Source: a virus
Lineage: Duplodnaviria > Heunggongvirae > Uroviricota > Caudoviricetes
Direction: 5' to 3' (one strand)
Length of the DNA stretch: 31,309 bases
Virus record (IMG/VR): IMGVR_UViG_2534681697_000027
Location: 1 to 31,309 of that record
The notes under the pieces are model-generated. The model ran no database searches. It was not told the origin of the DNA and was given only the letters and a program-made list of their open reading frames with translations. The translations under genes and the position numbers were made by a program. Shown here one piece after another: positions 269 through 31,309 of the stretch (its first letter is position 1; each line of letters starts with the position of its first letter).

Positions 269-366
269 ATGAAATTTCTGGAATGTGCTGTCCGGGATGT
301 GATTTATGGGACCAATGTCCGTATTGTCAAACCGGTCAACATTTATGAATGTGAACTCAGGGACAA
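269..366 (+). pseudogene. 5' fragment of an unknown ORF ([33 protein letters not shown]) cut off by the IS2 left end
   Basis: ATG at 269 opens a frame that runs straight into the IS2 terminus, where a stop from the IS sequence ends it; no 3' continuation in window. Confidence 0.3.
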
Positions 367-457
367 TAGACTGGCCCCCTGAATCTCCAGACAACCAGTA
401 TCACTTAAATAAGTGATAGTCTTAATACTAGTTTTTAGACTAGTCATTGGAGTACAG

Positions 458-823
458 ATGATTGATGTCTTAGGGCCGGAGAAACGCAGACGGCGTACCA
501 CACAGGAAAAGATCGCAATTGTTCAGCAGAGCTTTGAACCGGGGATGACGGTCTCCCTCGTTGCCCGGCAACATGGTGTAGCAGCCAGCCAGTTATTTCT
601 CTGGCGTAAGCAATACCAGGAAGGAAGTCTTACTGCTGTGGCCGCCGGAGAACAGGTTGTTCCTGCCTCTGAACTTGCTGCCGCCATGAAGCAGATTAAA
701 GAACTCCAGCGCCTGCTCGGCAAGAAAACGATGGAAAATGAACTCCTCAAAGAAGCCGTTGAATATGGACGGGCAAAAAAGTGGATAGCGCACGCGCCCT
801 TATTGCCCGGGGATGGGGAGTAA
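458..823 (+). CDS. insC: IS2 transposase OrfA (InsC), 121 aa
   Basis: [41 protein letters not shown]... matches recalled InsC; the track ORF begins 15 codons upstream. Confidence 0.85.
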
Positions 824-1686
824 GCTTAGTCAGCCGTTGTCTCCGGGTGTCGCGTGCGCAGTTGCACGTCATTCTCAGACGAACCGATGACTGGATGGAT
901 GGCCGCCGCAGTCGTCACACTGATGATACGGATGTGCTTCTCCGTATACACCATGTTATCGGAGAGCTGCCCACGTATGGTTATCGTCGGGTATGGGCGC
1001 TGCTTCGCAGACAGGCAGAACTTGATGGTATGCCTGCGATCAATGCCAAACATGTTTACCGGATCATGCGCCAGAATGCGCTGTTGCTTGAGCGAAAACC
1101 TGCTGTACCGCCATCGAAACGGGCACATACAGGCAGAGTGGCCGTGAAAGAAAGCAATCAGCGATGGTGCTCTGACGGGTTCGAGTTCTGCTGTGATAAC
1201 GGAGAGAGACTGCGTGTCACGTTCGCGCTGGACTGCTGTGATCGTGAGGCACTGCACTGGGCGGTGACTACCGGCGGCTTCAACAGTGAAACAGTACAGG
1301 ACGTCATGCTGGGAGCGGTGGAACGCCGCTTCGGCAACGATCTTCCGTCGTCTCCAGTGGAGTGGCTGACGGATAATGGTTCATGCTACCGGGCTAATGA
1401 AACACGCCAGTTCGCCCGGATGTTGGGACTTGAACCGAAGAACACGGCGGTGCGGAGTCCGGAGAGTAACGGAATAGCAGAGAGCTTCGTGAAAACGATA
1501 AAGCGTGACTACATCAGTATCATGCCCAAACCAGACGGGTTAACGGCAGCAAAGAACCTTGCAGAGGCGTTCGAGCATTATAACGAATGGCATCCGCATA
1601 GTGCGCTGGGTTATCGCTCGCCACGGGAATATCTGCGGCAGCGGGCTTGTAATGGGTTAAGTGATAACAGATGTCTGGAAATATAG
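781..1686 (+). CDS. insD: IS2 transposase OrfB (InsD), 301 aa, DDE domain
   Basis: 301-aa ORF overlapping insC in the -1 frame; sequence matches recalled InsD. Confidence 0.9.
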
Positions 1687-1698
1687 GGGCAAATCCAA

Positions 1699-2041
1699 TA
1701 GCTATTCCATCTCTACAAACAATAGTGATGATTTGCTTCTGGTCTCGCCATTGTTCAACCGTAGAAATAAAGGTTTCTACAAGTTGCCCCTGTCTGGTTA
1801 ATAGAACTGAACCCGTCGAATCAACCACTACAACACCGCTAATAGAGATGGTCTTAGGTGCTCTCTGAACATTATCAGTGATAGTTTGCCCCGATTGCAT
1901 AGCCTGAGTTGTCACCATCATCGGTGAGTCATAGTCCATCTGTTCAGTAGCTGTTAAGGCAAGAAAAGATTCTACATTATCTCTAAGGTGAAAATAGATA
2001 CCATCTTTACCTGAGTATCTAATTTGCTTTGTGTCAAACAT
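1699..2041 (-). pseudogene. 5' portion (about 114 codons) of a phage tail/baseplate-region gene truncated by IS2
   Basis: Minus-strand ORF starting at 2041 reads without a stop into the IS2 right end at 1698. Confidence 0.4.
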
Positions 2042-2044
2042 TGT

Positions 2045-2247
2045 TTATTCCTCTGGGTAAGCTGAGCTAATCAAGGTATCTTCCTGCATACGATTAATAT
2101 GAGATGTGGTTCTTTCATCAATAACCTTTCCATCAAGTACCGTCTGAGTTGTGATATTGATTGTCTGAGGCTGAATATTTACTGACGGCTTGATAACCTT
2201 TAAATCTTGTGTGAATGTTTCCACTCGACCTTTCAGATTATTTAATG
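2045..2247 (-). pseudogene. 3' fragment of a phage tail-region ORF lying directly outside the IS911-like terminus
   Basis: Track ORF 2045..2326; its first ~26 codons lie inside the IS terminal repeat, so only 2045-2247 is phage-derived. Confidence 0.25.
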
Positions 2248-4325
<2,078 letters not shown>

Positions 4326-4329
<4 letters not shown>

Positions 4330-4769
4330 ACCAGATCCCACATTTCAGAGTTGATGTAATACGTACCAGTAATGGTGATGGCCACACCCGGCTCGCCCCC
4401 GGCGAAGGTCATATCCTGCACGTTGGTGATCGCCGTGTTATAGATATCGAAGTCACCGAACACCGTGCTGTCGCTATACACTTTTGCGTCGCCGATCGTG
4501 GCATTCTTTTCCCATTGCGCCTTGAATTGTTTTCCCAGCGCCTGGCTACGCAGCAGATGAACACGCGCCTGTAAAATCATGTATGGCTGCGGCGACTGCA
4601 CGGCTCCCGTCATAGCGGGTAAAAACTCCGTGATATTGCCCTGACAGGACAATTCGACGCCTTCTTTTGCCAGAAATGAGGCGGACACATTCAGTTCAGA
4701 ATGGGAGGTGAATTTAACGCTGGCGCGAACCCGGTTAAGGGTGCCAACGGGGATCATTGGATTAGGCAC
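4326..4769 (-). CDS. Tail tube-like protein, 147 aa
   Basis: Small ORF between a sheath-sized ORF and the chaperone pair; assignment by size and position only. Confidence 0.35.
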
Positions 4770-4780
4770 GGTTCAGTCCC

Positions 4781-6034
4781 TCACGAAAGCTGCATTGTCA
4801 CATTGATGTTAAAAATGATTTCGACAAATCCGCGCATCGGCGTATAGGAGGCCGAAAGGCCTGCATAACGCCCGATACCGTAATCATTGGGATTAGTGTT
4901 GATATACTGGCGGAAAGGCACTGCATCGATGACAGGCTGACCGTTGACCAGGCCGTAAGATACGCCCGTATTGAACACCGCCTGTGCGAGCTGCATATCG
5001 ACATTAATCTGCACCCAGTCCACGGAATACCAGTACGTCATATCGTTACCGTCACTGGTAACGCCTTTCACCAGAATCGTGTTGGAAATTCCCCCCTCAG
5101 CCCCCGTGTCGACGTAGTTAATATTCTGCTTCGTCATCGTGACCAGAATTGAATTTTTGCCCGTGTGGGCGTTTACCGCCTGTAGATAGCGAAATGCCAT
5201 CGGCGGCACCTTGTTGATTTCTGAAGGTGATGCGGAAACATAGTTCCACATTACGGCTGCTGCCGCGTTTGTCGCCGGGTACGTATCATCCGCCGTTGCA
5301 ATAACCGACTTAATACCGGCATAAGGCGAAACGTAATTCGTGTCGTCCGGCGTTTTCGTCAGCACGAAGAAATACTGCATCGCTTCGTTGGCGGTGTGGA
5401 GTTTTGCCAGACTGATAAACTCTGCGTCACCATCCCACGGCTGCGGCACCAGATACGCATAAAAACGCAGGAGCGGATCTTCCATATAAGCTTTCAGTGC
5501 AGCGATTTCCTTACTGACTCCACCTTTCTGTACTCCCAGCTCCAGCAGGTAAATCCCAACTGAATTTCCCTGGGCAAAAAACGTGTTTACTGCCGTCACC
5601 AGATTTTCACTGCCAACAATGGAAAACTGCCCCAGTGTCACTGGCGAACCGGAAAGCTGAGAATCAGCAATCGTCCAGGTCAGTGTTTTTTCATCCGTGA
5701 CGGTAGCAGTATATTCGCCATTCCACGCGTCGGGCGAACACCCGGAAACAACAATTTTCACCTCAGAACTGTTTTCGCGTCGGATGTTGCTCCCTTCCGG
5801 AAGCGTCATCGTAACGGTGACGTTTGCCGCAGATTTTCCTGCAGCAGCCGCCGACAACGCAGCAATCGGATTTCTTACCAGATCGTTAATATCCTGATTA
5901 CGGGTGAGTAATACAGGCTTTCCCGGCTCATGAGTCGTGGAGCCAAACGAGAGAACAGCGGACATCTGCTGCAAATTCGAGGGAATGGCCCCGATGGTCT
6001 GGGACACATTCACCGTGACGATATTAAACCCCAT
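4781..6034 (-). CDS. Tail sheath-like structural protein, 417 aa
   Basis: Large ORF directly upstream of the tube-like gene; start overlaps upstream stop (TAATG); assignment by position. Confidence 0.35.
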   Translation of the reverse strand: MGFNIVTVNVSQTIGAIPSNLQQMSAVLSFGSTTHEPGKPVLLTRNQDINDLVRNPIAALSAAAAGKSAANVTVTMTLPEGSNIRRENSSEVKIVVSGCSPDAWNGEYTATVTDEKTLTWTIADSQLSGSPVTLGQFSIVGSENLVTAVNTFFAQGNSVGIYLLELGVQKGGVSKEIAALKAYMEDPLLRFYAYLVPQPWDGDAEFISLAKLHTANEAMQYFFVLTKTPDDTNYVSPYAGIKSVIATADDTYPATNAAAAVMWNYVSASPSEINKVPPMAFRYLQAVNAHTGKNSILVTMTKQNINYVDTGAEGGISNTILVKGVTSDGNDMTYWYSVDWVQINVDMQLAQAVFNTGVSYGLVNGQPVIDAVPFRQYINTNPNDYGIGRYAGLSASYTPMRGFVEIIFNINVTMQLS

Positions 6035-6978
6035 TATTTAACCTCATATTTACAAATGACTTTTTCAATCAACTGCCGGGATATTTCCCGGGCGGTGCTC
6101 TGGTAGTAATTCACGTCAAAATCGACAATCTTTTTCTTCGCCAGAGCGTTGATTTCAACCTGTCCCGACTTTGCGTCCTGAACCACCGGAATATTGGTTA
6201 CACCAAACTTTTCCTCCTCCAGCGCCCTGTTCACCACCGAGTCGACAAGATCCAGCGCCATTTTATTGCTGAATCCATAAAGCGTCAGGCGAACCGAATC
6301 CTGGACGAGCTGGAATCGCTCACCACCGAAAACAACGGGAGCCACCTGCAATGGAATACTGTTGCGAACATCCACCGCGATATACGGAGGGCGAAGGTTC
6401 TGCGGTACCAGGTAAGACGGATACACGGTCGCGGCATCTTTCATTTGCAGCCAGATCGGGATGCTGTTGGATATGATCTGCTCGTCGCTGATATCCTCCT
6501 CGCAGTCGATAATCTGGGAACGCATGGTTGGAAAAATCGCCATGCCGCGATAATGAAAAATACCCGACTGCTGATAGCGGCTCTCCATTCGAGAAAAAGC
6601 GAACTGGACGCCGCCGTACTCACCGAGATAGATCGCATCGGGATTTTCCACATTAAAATCATCAACCTGCTGAACAGGCGTGAAAATAATGTTGTTCACA
6701 TCCTTCGAGACAGACTCGTCCTGAATCGCAATAATCTGACGATGCAGGCTGCCTTTGATTTTCAGACGAGTTGGTGACTCAATATTCAGACGACACAGTT
6801 CATCGCAACTGATGATTTCCGCATTAACCCAATAGACAAAGCCATCCAGCGGCAGAACCTGCCGGACATAGAGCCTGAACGTGATTTCCTAGTCTGACGA
6901 GATGGTTTCAACTGCGGATTTAAGAACGGACGAGAGCTGCGAACTGTGCTGTTCGGCTAATTCTTCAAGACTCGGCAT
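6034..6978 (-). pseudogene. Phage structural gene (315 codons) carrying an in-frame TAG at codon 30
   Basis: ATG at 6978 overlaps the upstream gene by 14 nt; frame is MPSLEELAEQHSSQLSSVLKSAVETISSD-TAG-EITFRLYVRQ... and continues into track ORF 6034..6699. Confidence 0.5.
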
Positions 6979-7407
6979 TGTTATCTATCCACGCTATAAA
7001 GCTGCCCTTAAACAGGCCGCCATCTATGAATGACGGGCGCCGCTCCCCGGTATATTTGTCCTTAAGCCTTGAGTTAACACCCTGTAACGCAGCCTGGGTT
7101 GGGACCTGATTTCCGTTGATCGTCATTCCGGCCATTTCTTCGGTTTCAAGAAATATATGGAAAATCTTCCCGGTCCCTTCCAGAAAATGCTCGCCAGGTA
7201 GCGGAGCCTTATACTTGAAGTGATTGACCAACTGGTACGCCAGTTCAGTACCTGCCTCCTGGATAATCTCGTCCTTATGCATTTCCCAGAAGTGCGTAAA
7301 AATTTCGTATCGCTCCTCGAGGTCACAGGCCACGTCAAACGTGGTTTTTCCCAGTTCGTCGCCGTAGTCATACGGCTGGTCGATAACCCCAAAACAAAGT
7401 TTCATGG
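6965..7407 (-). CDS. Phage structural protein, 146 aa (MKLCFGVIDQPYDYG...)
   Basis: ATG at 7407-7405 overlaps the upstream stop (ATGA); within the packed late operon. Confidence 0.45.
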
Positions 7408-7718
7408 CGTGTAACCCCATACCGTGCCCATCTGCATCAGCACCGCAACAACCTGTCGTCCATACGGATCCTGTAACATCTGCAAATCCAGCAAAGACAG
7501 ATTACTCAGCGCGTCGCTGATGGTGATCGAACCAGATGTCCCCTGGTCTGCTGCCGCGCTGACAAGCCCGGTAGCCAGTTTCCCAAGGTTGAGTTTTTTT
7601 CTCAGGTCGGCAAACCACGAGCCGGGAGCGAAATTCAGGAGAAATGAGGCGGCAGCGTTATAAACCGTTCGCACATAGATGATGGGTAAACGCTCCAGCC
7701 CCTGATCGTGAGGGATTA

Positions 7719-8634
7719 GGCTGTGTCCCTTAATTACGTAAGCGTTGATAAAAGAGTCGGATGCAGCCCAGTTTCACCATCGCCAGGTAATTTCTCGCCG
7801 TTTTGTCGTAACGCGTGGCGATGCGGCGATATTCTTTCAGCCGCCCAAAGCACCGTTCAACGACATTACGATTGCGGTACGCATCACGATCAAGCTGTGC
7901 ACGTCCATCCGATGCCATTTTCTCATTTGACTTTCGGGGGATTACTGCCTTTATACCGTTATTTTTCAGCTCGTTGCGCAATGCGCGCCCTGAATACGCT
8001 TTATCAGCCAGTACCGCATGTCCACGGCGTTTCATGCTGCCGTTCTGACGCTGAACGCCAATCCCGTCCAGAAGTCGTTGCGCGAACTGGCTTTCATGAG
8101 CTTGTCCGGGGCTTAGCACGATATTTAACGGGAGGCCACTTCCGTCTGTTGCCAGATGGATTTTGGTGCCAAAACCGCCGCGAGAGCGACCCAGTCCATT
8201 ATCTCCGTCGATATCGGGATGTTTTTTTGAGCACCGGCGGCACATTTCAGCGCCCGGATATTACTGCCATCCAGCGCGGTGGCAGACCAGTCAATAAAGC
8301 CGTTTGCATCAAGTAGCGAAAGCAACCTGTTGAAAATAATATTAATCACGCCTGACTTTGACCATCGGTTAAAGCGGTTATAAACAGTTTTCCATGACCC
8401 ATATCGTTCGGGTAAATCGCGCCATGGTGCACCGGAACATAACACCCAGAACATGCCATTGATGATTTTACGGTGCTCAGCCCATGGGCGTCCGGCCCGT
8501 GGTGTGGCGGGTTCAGGAGGTAACAGGGGCTTGATGATGGTCCATGCCTCATCGGGAAGGTCGTAGCGAGCCATAGTTCAATATGTTGTGTAAACAGACA
8601 GTTACTATAGCTCAGATGATTAAGGGACACAGCC
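7719..8634 (-). mobile_element. IS5-family (IS427-group-like) element, copy A, 916 bp, flanked by TA
   Basis: Inverted termini GGCTGTGTCCCTTAAT / ATTAAGGGACACAGCC; TA at 7717-7718 and 8635-8636; ~99% identical to copy B. Confidence 0.8.
7730..8574 (-). CDS. IS5-family DDE transposase encoded as two overlapping frames (8574->8125 and 8245->7730) joined by a -1 shift
   Basis: ORF1 MARYDLPDEAWTIIKPLLPP...; ORF2 carries DDE-like residues (LATDGSG, LADKAYSG, NVVERCFGRLKEY); A AAA AAC heptamer in the overlap. Confidence 0.75.
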
Positions 8635-8759
8635 TAGCTCCATAGCAGACTGAAAGCAACATTCCAGCGTCGGATCATCGTCAGCAATAGCGTGAACCGA
8701 TACTTTCATGTCGTCACGAACAAAGCGAATAAATCCCTCCAGTGACGGACGCAAGGTCA

Positions 8760-9230
8760 TTATTTTTTAACCTTAATATTTCGCTTTGTGCTGGGCGGAT
8801 TTTCCTGTTCAGTGTTAATCGCTTCCCCGGTGATTTCCATTTCAATACCACCCGGTTGAGGTTTTTCGCCACTTTGAATCACTGCCTGATCCACTGCGTT
8901 ATTCAGCGATACGGCGCTGGCTGCAAGAATTTCTTCTGACAGGGATTCCAGATTTTCCGTTTTCTGCTCCGCGCAATCCTCAATGCGACCGACGCTCACA
9001 GGTTTATCGATGGAATAGCAGATACCGGAAAAATTCTTGTCCACCTTGTCACAACGCTGGAATCCGTAAGGCTCATGCTGTCGGATGATGTGGTCGATAA
9101 TATCGGACTGATTTTCGATCATATGCTGACGTCCGGACGGAATTGTCACACCGAACGACTGCGTTTTTTCGGGGAGTTTGTAGTTGAACGTGTGCGGCTG
9201 ACGTGAGCAGTTAGCGATGTAGAGCTTCAT
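8760..9230 (-). CDS. Phage structural protein of unknown function, about 156 aa
   Basis: ORF between major capsid and the IS-split gene; stop overlaps the downstream start (TAATG); start taken at MKLYIANC with an upstream GGG-rich ribosome-binding site. Confidence 0.4.
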   Translation of the reverse strand: MKLYIANCSRQPHTFNYKLPEKTQSFGVTIPSGRQHMIENQSDIIDHIIRQHEPYGFQRCDKVDKNFSGICYSIDKPVSVGRIEDCAEQKTENLESLSEEILAASAVSLNNAVDQAVIQSGEKPQPGGIEMEITGEAINTEQENPPSTKRNIKVKK

Positions 9231-9286
9231 AAATTTTTCCCACAAAAAAGGGAGCATTTAGCTCCCCGCGTTATCAGATTGAACGT

Positions 9287-10315
9287 TTATGCGTATTTGG
9301 CAGACAACAGGGTGATCCCCTCAGGGCGGAAGTTCCAGCCCGGCGTCGCGCGCATGGTATACAACGTGGTCAGGCCGCCATCCGGCATAGGGGACGGGAT
9401 TTCCGTCGGCGCTGCCATATCACAGAACATCACGTTGACGGCCTGCTGGTTAGGTACCAGCGTGGAGAAAATATTGGTGTTAATGGTGTGACGCGCTTCC
9501 GGAACCTCAATCGTCGGGTTCGTAACGATGATCAGGTCATTACCACCAGCGCCTTTACCGATCAGCGTGTCGTCCTAGCAGAACATGATGTCGTCGCCTG
9601 TCGCCTTATCGGCGACGTCTTTAACCATCGTTCCCACCGTTCCGGTACCACCACCAGGACGCTGGTAACTGGTCAGCTCAACAATTCCTGTCCACTCCAG
9701 CGCCTTCATGAATCGCTGTGGGCTCAGAATAACAGTCGTTAATGGCTGCCCCAGCAGCAACATGCGGGTTTTCTGGTCAGCAATCAGGCCAAGCATAAAT
9801 TTAGCCATCTCGCCGGAATCCCAGGTGGTGTACGAATCGTTACCTTTGCTGTCGTTGCCCAGATTCAGCGTCACTGCGTTCGGTGAGTTGGTGATCCCCT
9901 CGTTATTAGCTGCATTCACGCCATACAGCAGCATATTACGCAACATTTGAGCGTGTCCCTGACGGTTAGCCAGGCGCAGGCCTTCAATCAGAGAATAGCC
10001 CCAGCGATCTGCTGCATCAGTATCGAGATAGCTGTATTGCGAGCGGGAAGAAATTCGGTAAGTCATCATTCCGTCATAGCCGCCAGAGATACTGGAAGAC
10101 GGTAACTGACCCGGCAGAGACTGGCTGACCTGCGCCTGCGAGGTCATGCGCAGATATTTCTGATAGACCATCAAATCACTGGAACTGATTTTTACCGCTG
10201 GAGCACCACCGGCCAGGACTTCAAACGCCCCGGAAGCCATGCTCTGTTGCACGATCATTTCCGGCAGCACCATTGACGGCGACACAATAGTAGTCGCAGG
10301 AGTAAATGCGCTCAT
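9287..10315 (-). pseudogene. Major capsid-like protein (343 codons) with an in-frame TAG at codon 247
   Basis: Track ORF 9575..10315 ends at TAG (plus 9575-9577); the same frame stays open for 95 more codons (DDTLIGKGAGGNDLIIVTNPTIEVPEARHTINTNIF...) to TAA at 9287; size and position after scaffold fit a major capsid. Confidence 0.55.
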
Positions 10316-10329
10316 TAATTAATATCCCC

Positions 10330-10947
10330 TTAAATTAAAAACAGGCCGCACGGTTTGCCGATTTCCCAGACAACGTTACCACCATCCTCTTTTTTCACCG
10401 TCAGGTTTCCGTCAACTGAAACCATCAGCAGCTTAATATCCACTTTCGGATTAGCGCCGGGTGATCCCGAATAAACATCAACCATGTTTTTCGTCAGATC
10501 CCACACAAAACCACTGGCAGCAACGGTGTTATTTCCATCAGCCAGCGCAACAACTTCTGCACTGACAGGGAGAGGAATGCGGGCACCTGAGCCAACGCGG
10601 TAATAGTGAACAAAGCCACCCGCGAGATATAACGGCACCGGATTATCCGGCGTGGTAATGCCATGAAATGCCTGATTAAAGACAGTAAAGGCGTTACAGG
10701 CGTCCTTCGTGGCTTGTTTAATTACCGCGCCGTTAACGCTGTCTTTCGCGGGGGCAATGCACTCCATAACTCCAACGCCACCCCATACCGGTTCAGTGAT
10801 TTTGCTGTCCAGTCGACCGGAGCAAAGTTGCAGACGAATTGCCGGATCATCCTGCGCATCCCCCTGCATCAGCCCACGGGATTCGACGTTAAAAAGGCCA
10901 CCAAATGCTCCACGGTTTTTAAACGGATGAAAGTTAATATCAGCCAT
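10330..10947 (-). CDS. Head protein of unknown role (possible decoration or minor capsid), 205 aa
   Basis: ORF between scaffold and major capsid; start overlaps the scaffold stop. Confidence 0.35.
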   Translation of the reverse strand: MADINFHPFKNRGAFGGLFNVESRGLMQGDAQDDPAIRLQLCSGRLDSKITEPVWGGVGVMECIAPAKDSVNGAVIKQATKDACNAFTVFNQAFHGITTPDNPVPLYLAGGFVHYYRVGSGARIPLPVSAEVVALADGNNTVAASGFVWDLTKNMVDVYSGSPGANPKVDIKLLMVSVDGNLTVKKEDGGNVVWEIGKPCGLFLI

Positions 10948-11656
10948 TGTTCAGGCTCCCTTGAGTGTTAATTTTTGCCAGACGACGCCCCGGAATTTTG
11001 AAAGCACTCAGCCAGACGTTCGGATCGCCCTGATATTCAGTAATGCGACGTCCGGCTTCATCGTTGCGGATACGTTTATGCAGTTGCCCCTGCGTACTCA
11101 TCATTTCTTTTTCGATGGACTGACGGGCGGCACTGAAAATTGCGTCCTCAAGCACAGCCAGCGTTGCAGAATCCGCAATCGCGCGAATATTGACGTCCTT
11201 ATGTACCGAAGAGTGTTTCTGCATAGCGATTAGCGCACGCTTGCGGTAGTCCAGCGCATTTTCACCAGAAAACGGTGCTGGCGCGTTTTTACCGCAGGCA
11301 CTGAATGCGGAGTCGGCTTTTGCCTGTGCTTCTGCCAGGGCTGAGTCATTGCGTTCTTTTTCTGCCTCCTCGGCAGCCTTACGCTGTTCTTCCGCTTCGG
11401 AATCAGCCTTTGCTTTCTCCTCAGCGTCTTTAGCTGCCGCCTCGTCAGCTTTGGCTTTTTCTTCCGCCTCCTTTGCCGCAGCTTCATCAGCTTTACGCCG
11501 TTCCTCTGCGGCTTCATCGGCTTTGGCCTTTTCTTCGGCCTCTTTTTTCACCTGTTCTTCGGCATCCGCCCGCGCTTTGTCCCGCTGTTCTAGTGAGTCC
11601 ATGCGCGTAACGACACCATCGATTTTCTGATTAATGCCTTGCAGGGCATCGCTCAC
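10940..11656 (-). CDS. Scaffold-like coiled-coil head protein, 238 aa, now starting with GTG at the IS110 junction
   Basis: K/E/A-rich repeats (EEKAKADEAA...); position between head morphogenesis and capsid; first codon GTG whose G is the complement of the IS terminal base. Confidence 0.5.
   Translation of the reverse strand: MSDALQGINQKIDGVVTRMDSLEQRDKARADAEEQVKKEAEEKAKADEAAEERRKADEAAAKEAEEKAKADEAAAKDAEEKAKADSEAEEQRKAAEEAEKERNDSALAEAQAKADSAFSACGKNAPAPFSGENALDYRKRALIAMQKHSSVHKDVNIRAIADSATLAVLEDAIFSAARQSIEKEMMSTQGQLHKRIRNDEAGRRITEYQGDPNVWLSAFKIPGRRLAKINTQGSLNNG
11370..11560 (-). repeat. Imperfect tandem coding repeat (~30-33 nt units) inside the scaffold gene
   Basis: Repeating GCNGCNTCNTCNGCTTTNGC units encoding (A/E)EEKAKADEAA. 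Confidence 0.5.
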
Positions 11657-30172: not shown

Positions 30173-31309
30173 TCAGTCCGCCCACCACTGCATCATTTCT
30201 CTGCGCTTATCGAGATACTGCGCATGGTTGTAAATCCCGCGCACAGATCCGCCGTTGGCATGTGCCAGTTGCACTTCAATAGCGTCAGCAGGCCATTCGT
30301 GCTCGTTCATAATCGTGCTGAATTCATGCCTGAATCCGTGACCGCTTTCCAGACCCTCATAGCCGATTTGTTTGATCACAAGCAATACCGCGTTCTCGCA
30401 GATTGGCTTCTTCTTATCGTTGCGCCCGGCAAAAACAAACTCTGATACTGGTTTGGTGATGGAGCTTAGCGTAGTGAGAAGTTCAACCACCTGGTCTGAC
30501 ATCGGGACCACATGAATTTTGCGTCCCTTCATCACACTGGCGTCGATGGTGATAATCCTGTTTTCAAAATCGACGTTCTTCCATAGCATGGAACGAAGCT
30601 CTTTCGTTCTTAGGGCTGTGTAGCGTAAAACTTTGGTCGCAATGAGCGATACGATACTTCCTGAAAATGTTGCCAGTGCTTTGTTGAATGCCGGGAGCTG
30701 GTCTGCAGGAAGAAACGGGAAGTTCTTCTTGCGGTATCCCTTCATGGCGTCAGCAAGATCAGGTGCCGGGTTATATTTAGCCCTTCCGATGACAATAGCG
30801 TAACGGAAAACCTCGCCGCATCTTCTACGTGCTTTGTTGGCTCGCTCCATTGCACCGCGATCTTCAAATCTGCGGATTACTTCCAGCAGTTGCATCGGCT
30901 CAATATCCTGAATTTCAAGGCCGCCGATGATGGGTAAAATGTCGTCATCAAACATTTTTGCAAGTTCAGTCGCATACCCTACTGACCAGACTTGCTTCTT
31001 GTGTTCGTACCATTCCTTGTAAATTGCACTAAAGGAATTGTTGTTAGACGAAGCCTTTTTCGCCTTTACCGGATCGATGCCAACCGAGATGTCTTTCCTC
31101 GCAGTCCATGCTTTATCCCTTGCCTCCTGCAAAGTCATAAGCGGATATTTTCCGACAGTCAGGATTTTCTCCTTACCGTCAATCTTGTAGCGAAGCTGCC
31201 ATACCTTTTTCCCTGACACAGGGACATAAAGGTACAGGCCATTACCATCGAGTAGGCGGTATGGTTTTTCTTTCGGCTTTGCTGCTTCAATCTGCTTAAC
31301 GGTGAGCAT
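30173..31309 (-). CDS. int: P4-type tyrosine integrase, 378 aa; start codon is the last three bases of the window
   Basis: N-terminus MLTVKQIEAAKPKEKPYRLLDGNGLYLYVPVSGKKVWQLRYKIDGKEK typical of P4-family integrases; C-terminal HGFRH...RGIYNHAQY catalytic region. Confidence 0.85.
   Translation of the reverse strand: MLTVKQIEAAKPKEKPYRLLDGNGLYLYVPVSGKKVWQLRYKIDGKEKILTVGKYPLMTLQEARDKAWTARKDISVGIDPVKAKKASSNNNSFSAIYKEWYEHKKQVWSVGYATELAKMFDDDILPIIGGLEIQDIEPMQLLEVIRRFEDRGAMERANKARRRCGEVFRYAIVIGRAKYNPAPDLADAMKGYRKKNFPFLPADQLPAFNKALATFSGSIVSLIATKVLRYTALRTKELRSMLWKNVDFENRIITIDASVMKGRKIHVVPMSDQVVELLTTLSSITKPVSEFVFAGRNDKKKPICENAVLLVIKQIGYEGLESGHGFRHEFSTIMNEHEWPADAIEVQLAHANGGSVRGIYNHAQYLDKRREMMQWWAD

What the first reader, a model, noticed from the sequence alone, without database searches (positions are those of the whole stretch)
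6889..9577. Two otherwise intact late structural genes each carry a single in-frame TAG
The major capsid-like gene (10315->9287) is interrupted only by TAG at plus 9575-9577, with the same frame continuing for 95 sense codons to its TAA. A second structural gene (6978->6034) has TAG at codon 30 (plus 6889-6891) and then 284 more sense codons. Both genes keep overlapping start/stop coupling with their neighbours, so they look recently intact. Two amber codons and no frameshifts is not the usual pattern of prophage decay; it could reflect recent inactivation or passage through a suppressor background. None of the four phage tRNAs has a CUA anticodon.
Basis: seen in the sequence. Interest (0 to 1): 0.6.

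Follow-up and report, generated by a model that had tools for sequence, protein, structure and literature searches.

The report
Amber pseudogenes in a decaying prophage
Two phage structural genes in a crippled Shigella boydii prophage were each knocked out by a C-to-T change at a Dcm methylation site (CCAGG to CTAGG), the textbook hot spot for amber mutations, so this is ordinary prophage decay and not a suppressor or recoding system.

Summary
The gene at 10315->9287 is a major capsid gene with an HK97 fold, and it has TAG at codon 247. The gene at 6978->6034 is probably a neck or tail-terminator gene, and it has TAG at codon 30. In 7 aligned intact relatives both are single genes of the same length with CAG at these codons. 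None of the 55 and 83 E. coli genomes that carry these stretches matches the TAG-bearing 61-mers exactly. The window is identical over 20,315 bases to a contig of Shigella boydii ATCC 9905. Both TAGs recur in independent assemblies, so they are not sequencing errors. The prophage is far from otherwise intact: two insertion sequences sit inside late genes, terS has a -1 frameshift, the sheath gene has an 84-bp deletion, and the tape-measure gene is cut by IS911/IS2 with the distal tail genes missing. Lineage-specific substitutions show relaxed selection (14 synonymous, 17 missense, 2 nonsense). About 1.0-1.5 nonsense changes are expected by chance. Both changes hit the methylated cytosine of a Dcm site (CCAGG->CTAGG), the classical amber hot spot. 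Deamination at such sites in these genes can only create TAG stops. Verdict: ordinary pseudogene formation. There is no evidence for suppression.

The parts
9287..10315 (-). Major capsid protein gene (343 codons, HK97 fold, DUF2184/PF09950 family), now a pseudogene
   Evidence: It has the same length as the intact homologues. The AF2 model of a 99%-identical full-length relative has pLDDT 82, and its best Foldseek hits are the phage T1, FCWL1, Pa193 and E217 capsids and HK97. Relatives carry PF09950 or are named 'major capsid family protein'.
9575..9577 (-). Amber codon 247, derived from CAG (Gln). The mutated base is plus 9577, the 5-methylcytosine position of the ancestral Dcm site CCTGG at plus 9574-9578 (CCAGG on the coding strand).
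   Evidence: The truncation removes 96 residues, including the invariant D248, D249, L251, D260, T280, P288, A302, P303, G313, R322, G326, W327 and R330.
6034..6978 (-). 315-codon conserved phage gene (phrog_6359) immediately upstream of the sheath gene, probably a neck or tail-terminator protein, now a pseudogene
   Evidence: The AF2 model has low confidence (pLDDT 59). Its best Foldseek hits are phage neck, connector and tail-terminator chains at E = 1e-4 to 1e-2, so the assignment is tentative.
6889..6891 (-). Amber codon 30, derived from CAG (Gln, invariant in 30 homologues). The mutated base is plus 6891, the 5-methylcytosine position of the ancestral Dcm site at plus 6888-6892.
7720..8634 (-). 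ISSfl7-like IS5-family element (915 bp, 3-bp target duplication TAG) inserted in the 146-codon head-tail gene at 8760->7402
11657..13106 (+). ISEc20 (IS110-like) element inserted in the DUF2213 head gene at 13711->10940
18095..18101 (-). T7 run (T8 in six of the seven relatives aligned; E. coli W has T7 followed by C) that gives a -1 frameshift in terS (18332->17242). The reading frame stops after 86 codons.
   Evidence: The T7 allele is also present in the independent genome CP026875.1.
4781..6034 (-). Tail sheath-like gene with a lineage-specific 84-bp in-frame deletion (after plus 4985)
2799..3647 (-). First 283 codons of the tape-measure/transglycosylase gene. Homology to the relatives ends at 2799, where IS911 and IS2 sequences begin (about 366-2815). 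The baseplate and fibre genes of the relatives are absent.
23517..23827 (-). Four prophage tRNA genes (Gly-UCC, Thr-UGU, Arg-UCU, Met-CAU). None is an amber suppressor.

Best explanation
The window is a defective Rac-SA53-like prophage of Shigella boydii ATCC 9905. It is no longer under selection to make virions. In this lineage two independent C-to-T transitions converted in-frame CAG codons into TAG, one in the major capsid gene and one in a probable neck or tail-terminator gene. Both hit the inner cytosine of a Dcm site (CCAGG -> CTAGG). The most likely mechanism is spontaneous deamination of 5-methylcytosine to thymine that escaped Vsr very-short-patch repair. This is the classical amber hot spot first seen in lacI. 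Because the prophage was already, or was becoming, useless, the mutations were fixed by drift. Shown here: the ancestral codon, the Dcm context, inheritance across assemblies, the other lesions and the relaxed selection. Inferred: that the cytosines were methylated and that deamination, not polymerase error, produced the change. The order of the lesions is unknown.
For: Both TAGs replace CAG in all 7 aligned intact relatives. None of the 55 and 83 E. coli complete genomes that hold these 61-mers matches them exactly. The window is 100% identical over 20,315 nt to AERN01000081.1 of GCA_000193915.2, which PMC6397287 lists as S. boydii ATCC 9905. Both TAGs are present in independent assemblies. 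Other lesions in the same late operon are ISSfl7-like and ISEc20 insertions, a -1 frameshift in terS, an 84-bp deletion in the sheath gene, and a tape-measure gene cut by IS911/IS2 with the distal tail genes missing. Lineage-specific coding substitutions are 14 synonymous, 17 missense and 2 nonsense. Polymorphism among the intact relatives is 465 synonymous, 136 missense and 0 nonsense (Fisher P = 3e-5), which shows relaxed constraint. Of the 33 substitutions, 21 are G:C->A:T transitions. With that spectrum 3.1-4.6% of random substitutions give a stop, so 1.0-1.5 are expected and P(>=2) = 0.27-0.45. Both mutated bases are 5-meC positions of Dcm sites. That is 2 of 39 lineage-specific substitutions falling on 70 such positions in 13.3 kb (expected 0.2, P = 0.018). 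Only 15 of 171 in-frame CAG codons lie in CCAGG, so P(both) = 0.008. Only 18 of 348 transition routes to a stop are Dcm positions, so P(both) = 0.003. Deamination at the 70 positions gives 44 synonymous changes, 8 missense changes and 18 TAG, and never TAA or TGA. That explains why both stops are amber. The review PMC12606429 describes the lacI amber hot spots of Coulondre et al. 1978 as GC-to-AT changes at the second C of CCAGG. Shigella genomes carry at least 199 pseudogenes each, made by IS, nonsense and frameshift mutations (PMC7373316).
Against: Presence and activity of dcm in this strain were not tested, and neither was the state of vsr. With only two events, the Dcm enrichment tests are post hoc and modest (P = 0.003-0.018). 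The other 37 lineage-specific substitutions are not at Dcm sites, so ordinary transitions are the majority class here. A coincidence of context cannot be fully excluded. Both Dcm hits falling on the 26% of positions that make stops has P = 0.066 under neutrality. That leaves a little room for selection in favour of inactivation.
Confidence: 0.85

Rival explanations
1. This is the same neutral decay, but the Dcm context is a coincidence. The two CAG->TAG changes are ordinary replication-error or unmethylated-cytosine transitions like the other G:C->A:T changes in this lineage.
For: In the coding set 21 of 33 lineage-specific substitutions are G:C->A:T transitions; over the whole aligned region, intergenic included, 24 of 39 are, and 22 of those 24 are not at Dcm sites. 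CAG->TAG is the commonest single route to a stop even without Dcm, at 32-33% of stops under a transition-biased spectrum.
Against: Only 8.8% of in-frame CAG codons lie in CCAGG, so P(both) = 0.008. Only 5.2% of transition routes to a stop are Dcm positions, so P(both) = 0.003.
Confidence: 0.08
2. The nonsense mutations were positively selected. Silencing capsid and tail assembly would domesticate the prophage and stop lytic loss of cells, while retained cargo such as trkG, the O-acetyltransferase-like gene and the tRNAs stays useful.
For: Both Dcm-site hits fell on stop-generating positions, which has P = 0.066 under neutrality. Cargo genes and lysis genes still have open reading frames.
Against: Any one of the many other lesions already blocks particle formation. 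Missense changes are also in excess across all late genes, as expected from drift. No parallel inactivation is seen in the 55-83 E. coli carriers.
Confidence: 0.04
3. The host carries, or once carried, a supE-type (glnV CUA) amber suppressor, or the TAGs are otherwise read through. Both genes would then still yield full-length wild-type protein, because each TAG replaces Gln.
For: Both stops are TAG and both replace Gln, which is exactly what supE would restore. The host genome outside the window could not be scanned.
Against: There is no CUA-anticodon tRNA in the window. The TAG/Gln pattern is fully explained by Dcm chemistry. Relatives all have CAG, and only two sites are affected, so there is no recoding signature. 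Suppression could not rescue a prophage with a terS frameshift, two IS-disrupted head genes and no distal tail, so nothing would maintain it.
Confidence: 0.02
4. The TAGs are sequencing or assembly errors, or the native genes are really two genes or start downstream of the TAG.
For: AERN01 is an older draft assembly.
Against: Identical TAGs occur in an independent complete genome and in contigs from at least three further samples. All homologues are single ORFs of 339-343 and 310-317 residues that span the sites. The residues just downstream of codon 247 are invariant, and Q30 is invariant.
Confidence: 0.005

Closest known systems
Dcm-site amber hot spots in E. coli lacI (Coulondre, Miller, Farabaugh & Gilbert 1978; reviewed in PMC12606429)
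   Same: The change is a GC->AT transition at the second C of CCAGG that converts an in-frame CAG into TAG. The stops produced are always amber.
   Different: Here the mutations are seen as fixed natural changes in prophage genes of a Shigella lineage, not as selected laboratory mutants. Methylation status and dcm dependence were not tested.
Genome degradation in Shigella (IS expansion plus nonsense and frameshift pseudogenes; Hawkey et al. 2020, PMC7373316)
   Same: The same mix of lesions is present: IS2, IS911 and other IS insertions, nonsense codons and a homopolymer frameshift. They are fixed within a lineage.
   Different: That study did not treat this prophage or S. boydii populations specifically. 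The ISEc20 and ISSfl7-like elements seen here are not among its five pan-Shigella expanded IS.
Cryptic lambdoid prophages of E. coli K-12 (Rac, DLP12, Qin)
   Same: This is a Rac-type element with trkG cargo and lambdoid lysis/Q genes that has lost the capacity to make virions.
   Different: Here the late genes are those of phage Rac-SA53 and its relatives, a module with a contractile-tail sheath gene. Most of that late operon is still present, and decay is at an earlier stage (0.25% lineage-specific divergence).
Laboratory amber-mutant phages propagated on supE/supF hosts (for example lambda Sam7 or P22 amber mutants; from general knowledge)
   Same: Single in-frame TAGs sit in essential late genes, and supE would restore them to Gln.
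   Different: There is no evidence of a suppressor. The element is a chromosomal, IS-riddled remnant found in several natural isolates and is not a propagated phage stock.
Stop-codon-recoded phages (TAG read as Gln in late genes of crAss-like and other gut phages; from general knowledge)
   Same: In-frame TAG occurs in late structural genes at Gln positions.
   Different: Recoded phages have many in-frame TAGs that are conserved among relatives, and they usually carry a suppressor tRNA. Here there are two lineage-private TAGs, all relatives have CAG, and there is no suppressor tRNA.

Membership tests
Dcm (5-methylcytosine deamination) hot-spot mutation | The mutated base is the inner cytosine of CC(A/T)GG | tested here: met
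   Both ancestral contexts are CCAGG on the coding strand. The mutated positions, plus 9577 and 6891, fall on 5-meC positions.
Dcm (5-methylcytosine deamination) hot-spot mutation | The change is C->T (G->A on the opposite strand) | tested here: met
   CAG->TAG at both sites against all 7 relatives.
Dcm (5-methylcytosine deamination) hot-spot mutation | Such sites are hit more often than other cytosines | tested here: met
   2 hits against 0.2 expected, P = 0.018. Conditional on being stop-generating transitions, P = 0.003-0.008. This rests on only two events and is post hoc.
Dcm (5-methylcytosine deamination) hot-spot mutation | The host has an active Dcm methylase, and the hot spot disappears without it | not testable with these tools
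A literature search gave nothing specific.
Pseudogene in a defective prophage | Orthologues are single uninterrupted ORFs spanning the stop | tested here: met
Pseudogene in a defective prophage | Independent inactivating lesions in other essential genes of the same element | tested here: met
   IS insertions in two head genes, a terS frameshift, a truncated tape-measure gene and absent distal tail genes.
Pseudogene in a defective prophage | Relaxed purifying selection on the lineage | tested here: met
   19 non-synonymous to 14 synonymous changes in the lineage, against 136 to 465 among intact relatives. Fisher P = 3e-5.
Pseudogene in a defective prophage | No virions produced on induction | not testable with these tools
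   This needs an experiment.
Suppressor-dependent amber mutant or TAG recoding | A tRNA with a CUA anticodon encoded by the element | tested here: not met
   ARAGORN finds only Gly-UCC, Thr-UGU, Arg-UCU and Met-CAU.
Suppressor-dependent amber mutant or TAG recoding | A suppressor tRNA in the host chromosome | not testable with these tools
   The host genome beyond about 20 kb is not available. The genome-contig collection does not hold this genome.
Suppressor-dependent amber mutant or TAG recoding | In-frame TAGs are recurrent and conserved among relatives | tested here: not met
   There are two sites only. None of the 55 and 83 E. coli genomes that hold these stretches has a TAG there, and all 7 aligned relatives have CAG.
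HK97-fold major capsid protein (gene 10315->9287) | HK97 fold, and membership of a capsid family by sequence | tested here: met
   The AF2 model has pLDDT 82. Foldseek gives E = 5e-16 to the phage T1 capsid, then FCWL1, Pa193, E217 and HK97. Relatives carry PF09950. There is a weak hit to phrog_264, major head protein. The protein itself has no direct Pfam hit.
Tail terminator / neck protein (gene 6978->6034) | gpU/gp15-like fold, and a position between the head-completion genes and the sheath gene | tested here: inconclusive
   The position fits. The model is weak (pLDDT 59), with partial neck and terminator hits at E = 1e-4 to 1e-2. There are no Pfam, NCBIfam or PDB sequence hits.

The most novel reading that the evidence does not exclude
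The S. boydii lineage carries, or recently carried, a glnV(supE)-type amber suppressor. Both CAG->TAG changes would then be phenotypically silent and would be tolerated for that reason. This would be a natural suppressor background in a pathogen. A milder variant is that frame-biased Dcm sites (C-CAG-G) act as a systematic, built-in source of amber pseudogenes during Shigella genome degradation.
Probability: 0.02. Interest if true: 0.4.

Novelty: already known. Interest (0 to 1): 0.1.

Why it matters
It matters little for biology. It is a clean natural example of a mechanism known since 1978, acting in a genome already known for pseudogene accumulation. It has practical value for annotation and for this kind of scan. 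An in-frame TAG in enterobacterial DNA that sits in a CTAGG context, in an element with IS insertions, should be read as a Dcm hot-spot pseudogene. It is not a sign of suppression or recoding. In these late genes a quarter of the Dcm-methylated positions (18 of 70) would give an amber codon on deamination. That number could be tested genome-wide as a contributor to Shigella gene loss.

Tried and rejected
An exact-match scan of genome contigs for the capsid TAG 33-mer found nothing, so the source genome is not in that collection and the host could not be scanned for suppressor tRNAs or dcm. Pfam and NCBIfam gave no hit for either gene, and PDB sequence searches gave only chance hits. The capsid assignment therefore needed a structure prediction. 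The record annotations of Rac-SA53, vB_Apl-pPE4 and RefSeq call both genes hypothetical. The structure of the second gene came out with low confidence, so its neck or terminator assignment stays tentative. Literature searches for Dcm status in Shigella returned nothing usable. Sequencing error, two-gene and downstream-start readings were considered and rejected. TAG recoding was rejected because relatives have CAG and there is no suppressor tRNA. The idea that two nonsense codons are statistically unusual was rejected by the neutral expectation.
Full report
**Observation.** Reading the minus strand of 5900-10500 confirms both features. The 343-codon frame 10315->9287 contains one stop, TAG at codon 247 (plus 9575-9577). 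The 315-codon frame 6978->6034 contains one stop, TAG at codon 30 (plus 6889-6891). The mechanical ORF list shows the fragments this creates: 9575..10315 (246 aa) and 6034..6699. ARAGORN finds four tRNA genes at 23517-23827 (Gly-UCC, Thr-UGU, Arg-UCU, Met-CAU). None has a CUA anticodon.

**Homologues and the ancestral codons.** The 4.6-kb stretch matches 82 E. coli complete genomes over everything except an inserted IS. The best match is 99.6% (strain C7). It also matches phage Rac-SA53 at 98.8%. In these records both genes are single ORFs of 1029 and 945 nt. A codon-by-codon comparison shows that both TAGs replace CAG (Gln), each by a single C->T transition. No E. coli complete genome carrying the surrounding 61-mers (55 and 83 genomes) has the TAG. 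Wider protein searches give only full-length families of 339-343 and 310-317 residues. The residues directly after codon 247 (D248, D249, T250, L251) are invariant or nearly so, and Q30 is invariant. The native genes therefore span the TAG sites.

**Source and reality of the mutations.** An exact-protein look-up of the truncated capsid fragment found it in CP026875.1, AERN01000081.1, QWSH01000241.1 and SRR3793777. The fragment of the second gene was found in CP026875.1, QWSH01000206.1 and ERR200285. The window is 100% identical over 20,315 nt to AERN01000081.1 of GCA_000193915.2. PMC6397287 lists that assembly as Shigella boydii ATCC 9905. Exact-string checks confirm the TAG alleles in each of these loci. 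They are inherited lineage markers, not sequencing errors.

**What the genes are.** The first gene has no direct Pfam hit, but relatives carry PF09950 or are named major capsid family protein. An AlphaFold model of a 99%-identical full-length relative (pLDDT 82) matches the capsid proteins of phages T1, FCWL1, Pa193 and E217 and HK97 itself, with E down to 5e-16. It is an HK97-fold major capsid protein. The stop removes the last 96 residues and 13 invariant positions. The second gene (phrog_6359) lies directly upstream of the sheath-like gene. Its model is weak (pLDDT 59), but its best structural matches are phage neck, connector and tail-terminator chains. That assignment is tentative.

**State of the prophage.** The element is not otherwise intact.
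- Self-comparison and comparison with relatives show an ISSfl7-like IS5-family element at 7720-8634 inside a 146-codon head-tail gene.
- An ISEc20 (IS110-like) element at 11657-13106 sits inside the DUF2213 head gene. A second copy of each IS lies further right.
- A multiple alignment with seven intact relatives reveals a lineage-specific -1 frameshift in an A8 run of terS (plus 18095-18101). The reading frame ends after 86 codons. The frameshift is also present in CP026875.1.
- The same alignment shows an 84-bp in-frame deletion in the sheath-like gene.
- The tape-measure gene matches the relatives only down to 2799, where IS911 and IS2 sequences begin. The baseplate and fibre genes of the relatives are missing.

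**Selection and chance.** Against the seven relatives, the window has 33 private coding substitutions in 13.2 kb: 14 synonymous, 17 missense and 2 nonsense. Polymorphism among the intact relatives is 465 synonymous, 136 missense and 0 nonsense, which gives Fisher P = 3e-5. Constraint is therefore relaxed on this lineage. Of the 33 changes, 21 are G:C->A:T transitions. Enumerating all possible substitutions in these genes, 3.1-4.6% would create a stop, depending on the spectrum. That predicts 1.0-1.5 stops among 33, and P(>=2) = 0.27-0.45. Two nonsense codons are what neutral decay predicts.

**Why both are TAG from CAG.** Both ancestral sites read CCAGG on the coding strand. The mutated base is the inner cytosine, the position methylated by Dcm. 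The 13.3-kb region has 35 Dcm sites (70 methylated positions). Two of the 39 private substitutions fall on them, against 0.2 expected (P = 0.018), and those two are exactly the amber mutations. The sites were chosen for being stops, so a conditional test is fairer. Only 15 of 171 in-frame CAG codons lie in CCAGG (P for both = 0.008). Only 18 of 348 transition routes to a stop are Dcm positions (P = 0.003). Deamination at the 70 positions would give 44 synonymous changes, 8 missense changes and 18 TAG codons, and never TAA or TGA. This is the classical lacI amber hot spot of Coulondre et al. 1978: GC->AT at the second C of CCAGG, absent in strains lacking cytosine methylation (review PMC12606429). 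The steps not shown here are that this strain methylates CCWGG and that deamination, not polymerase error, caused the changes.

**Comparison with known systems and verdict.** Shigella genomes are known to carry hundreds of pseudogenes made by IS insertions, nonsense mutations and frameshifts (PMC7373316). This prophage shows all three. The suppressor idea is not needed to explain the pattern. It is not supported by the tRNAs in the window. It also could not restore a phage that lacks terS, two head genes and its distal tail. Recoding is excluded, because relatives have CAG and only two private sites are affected. The finding is a correct observation of two amber pseudogenes. The biology is ordinary and already understood, and the only mildly attractive point is how neatly it reproduces the Dcm hot-spot rule in nature.

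Noticed in passing
window 11657-13106 and 21391-22847: Two copies of ISEc20 (99.9% identical, same orientation). This is an IS110-like element whose transposase matches the NCBIfam model 'IS110 family RNA-guided transposase'. The first copy interrupts the DUF2213 head gene. The second lies just upstream of the holin gene, next to the lysis cassette.
   Followed up: partly
window 7720-8634 and 27022-27936: Two copies of an ISSfl7-like IS5-family element (915 bp, two overlapping transposase ORFs) in inverted orientation about 18 kb apart. The first has a 3-bp TAG target duplication. The pair could mediate inversion of the whole late region.
   Followed up: partly
window 18095-18101 (terS 18332->17242): A lineage-specific -1 frameshift in an A8->A7 homopolymer of the small terminase gene. 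It is also present in the independent genome CP026875.1.
   Followed up: yes
window 4985/4986 (gene 6034->4781): An 84-bp in-frame deletion in the tail sheath-like gene, lying between imperfect short repeats (GCGA[C/G]CTGC). The gene has 417 codons here and 445 in relatives.
   Followed up: partly
window 366-2815 and 2799-3647: The tape-measure/transglycosylase gene is fused at codon 283 to a remnant of the IS911 transposase, and an IS2 lies next to it. CP026875.1 has a different arrangement of these IS. This suggests ongoing IS-mediated rearrangement.
   Followed up: partly
window 18615-20090, 28369-29472, 30173-31309: Cargo and boundary genes with open frames: trkG (TrkH family) directly next to terS, an O-acetyltransferase-like gene (phrog_3333), and a tyrosine integrase that runs off the right end of the window.
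   Followed up: no
L015 (GenBank PP818812, 'Actinobacillus phage vB_Apl-pPE4'): This record is 97.5% identical to the E. coli / Rac-SA53 prophage late region. The stated Actinobacillus pleuropneumoniae host looks doubtful.
   Followed up: no
L001/L010-L014 portal genes (window 15909->14470): RefSeq names the portal gene 'anti-CBASS protein Acb1 family protein', whereas it matches the portal families phrog_146 and PF06381. This is probably a misleading product name.
   Followed up: no
late genes 2799-18332 (analysis on L010 orthologues): Dcm sites in these genes are strongly biased in reading frame (NNC-CAG-GNN or NNC-CTG-GNN). As a result, deamination outcomes are 63% synonymous, 11% missense and 26% amber.
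   Followed up: partly
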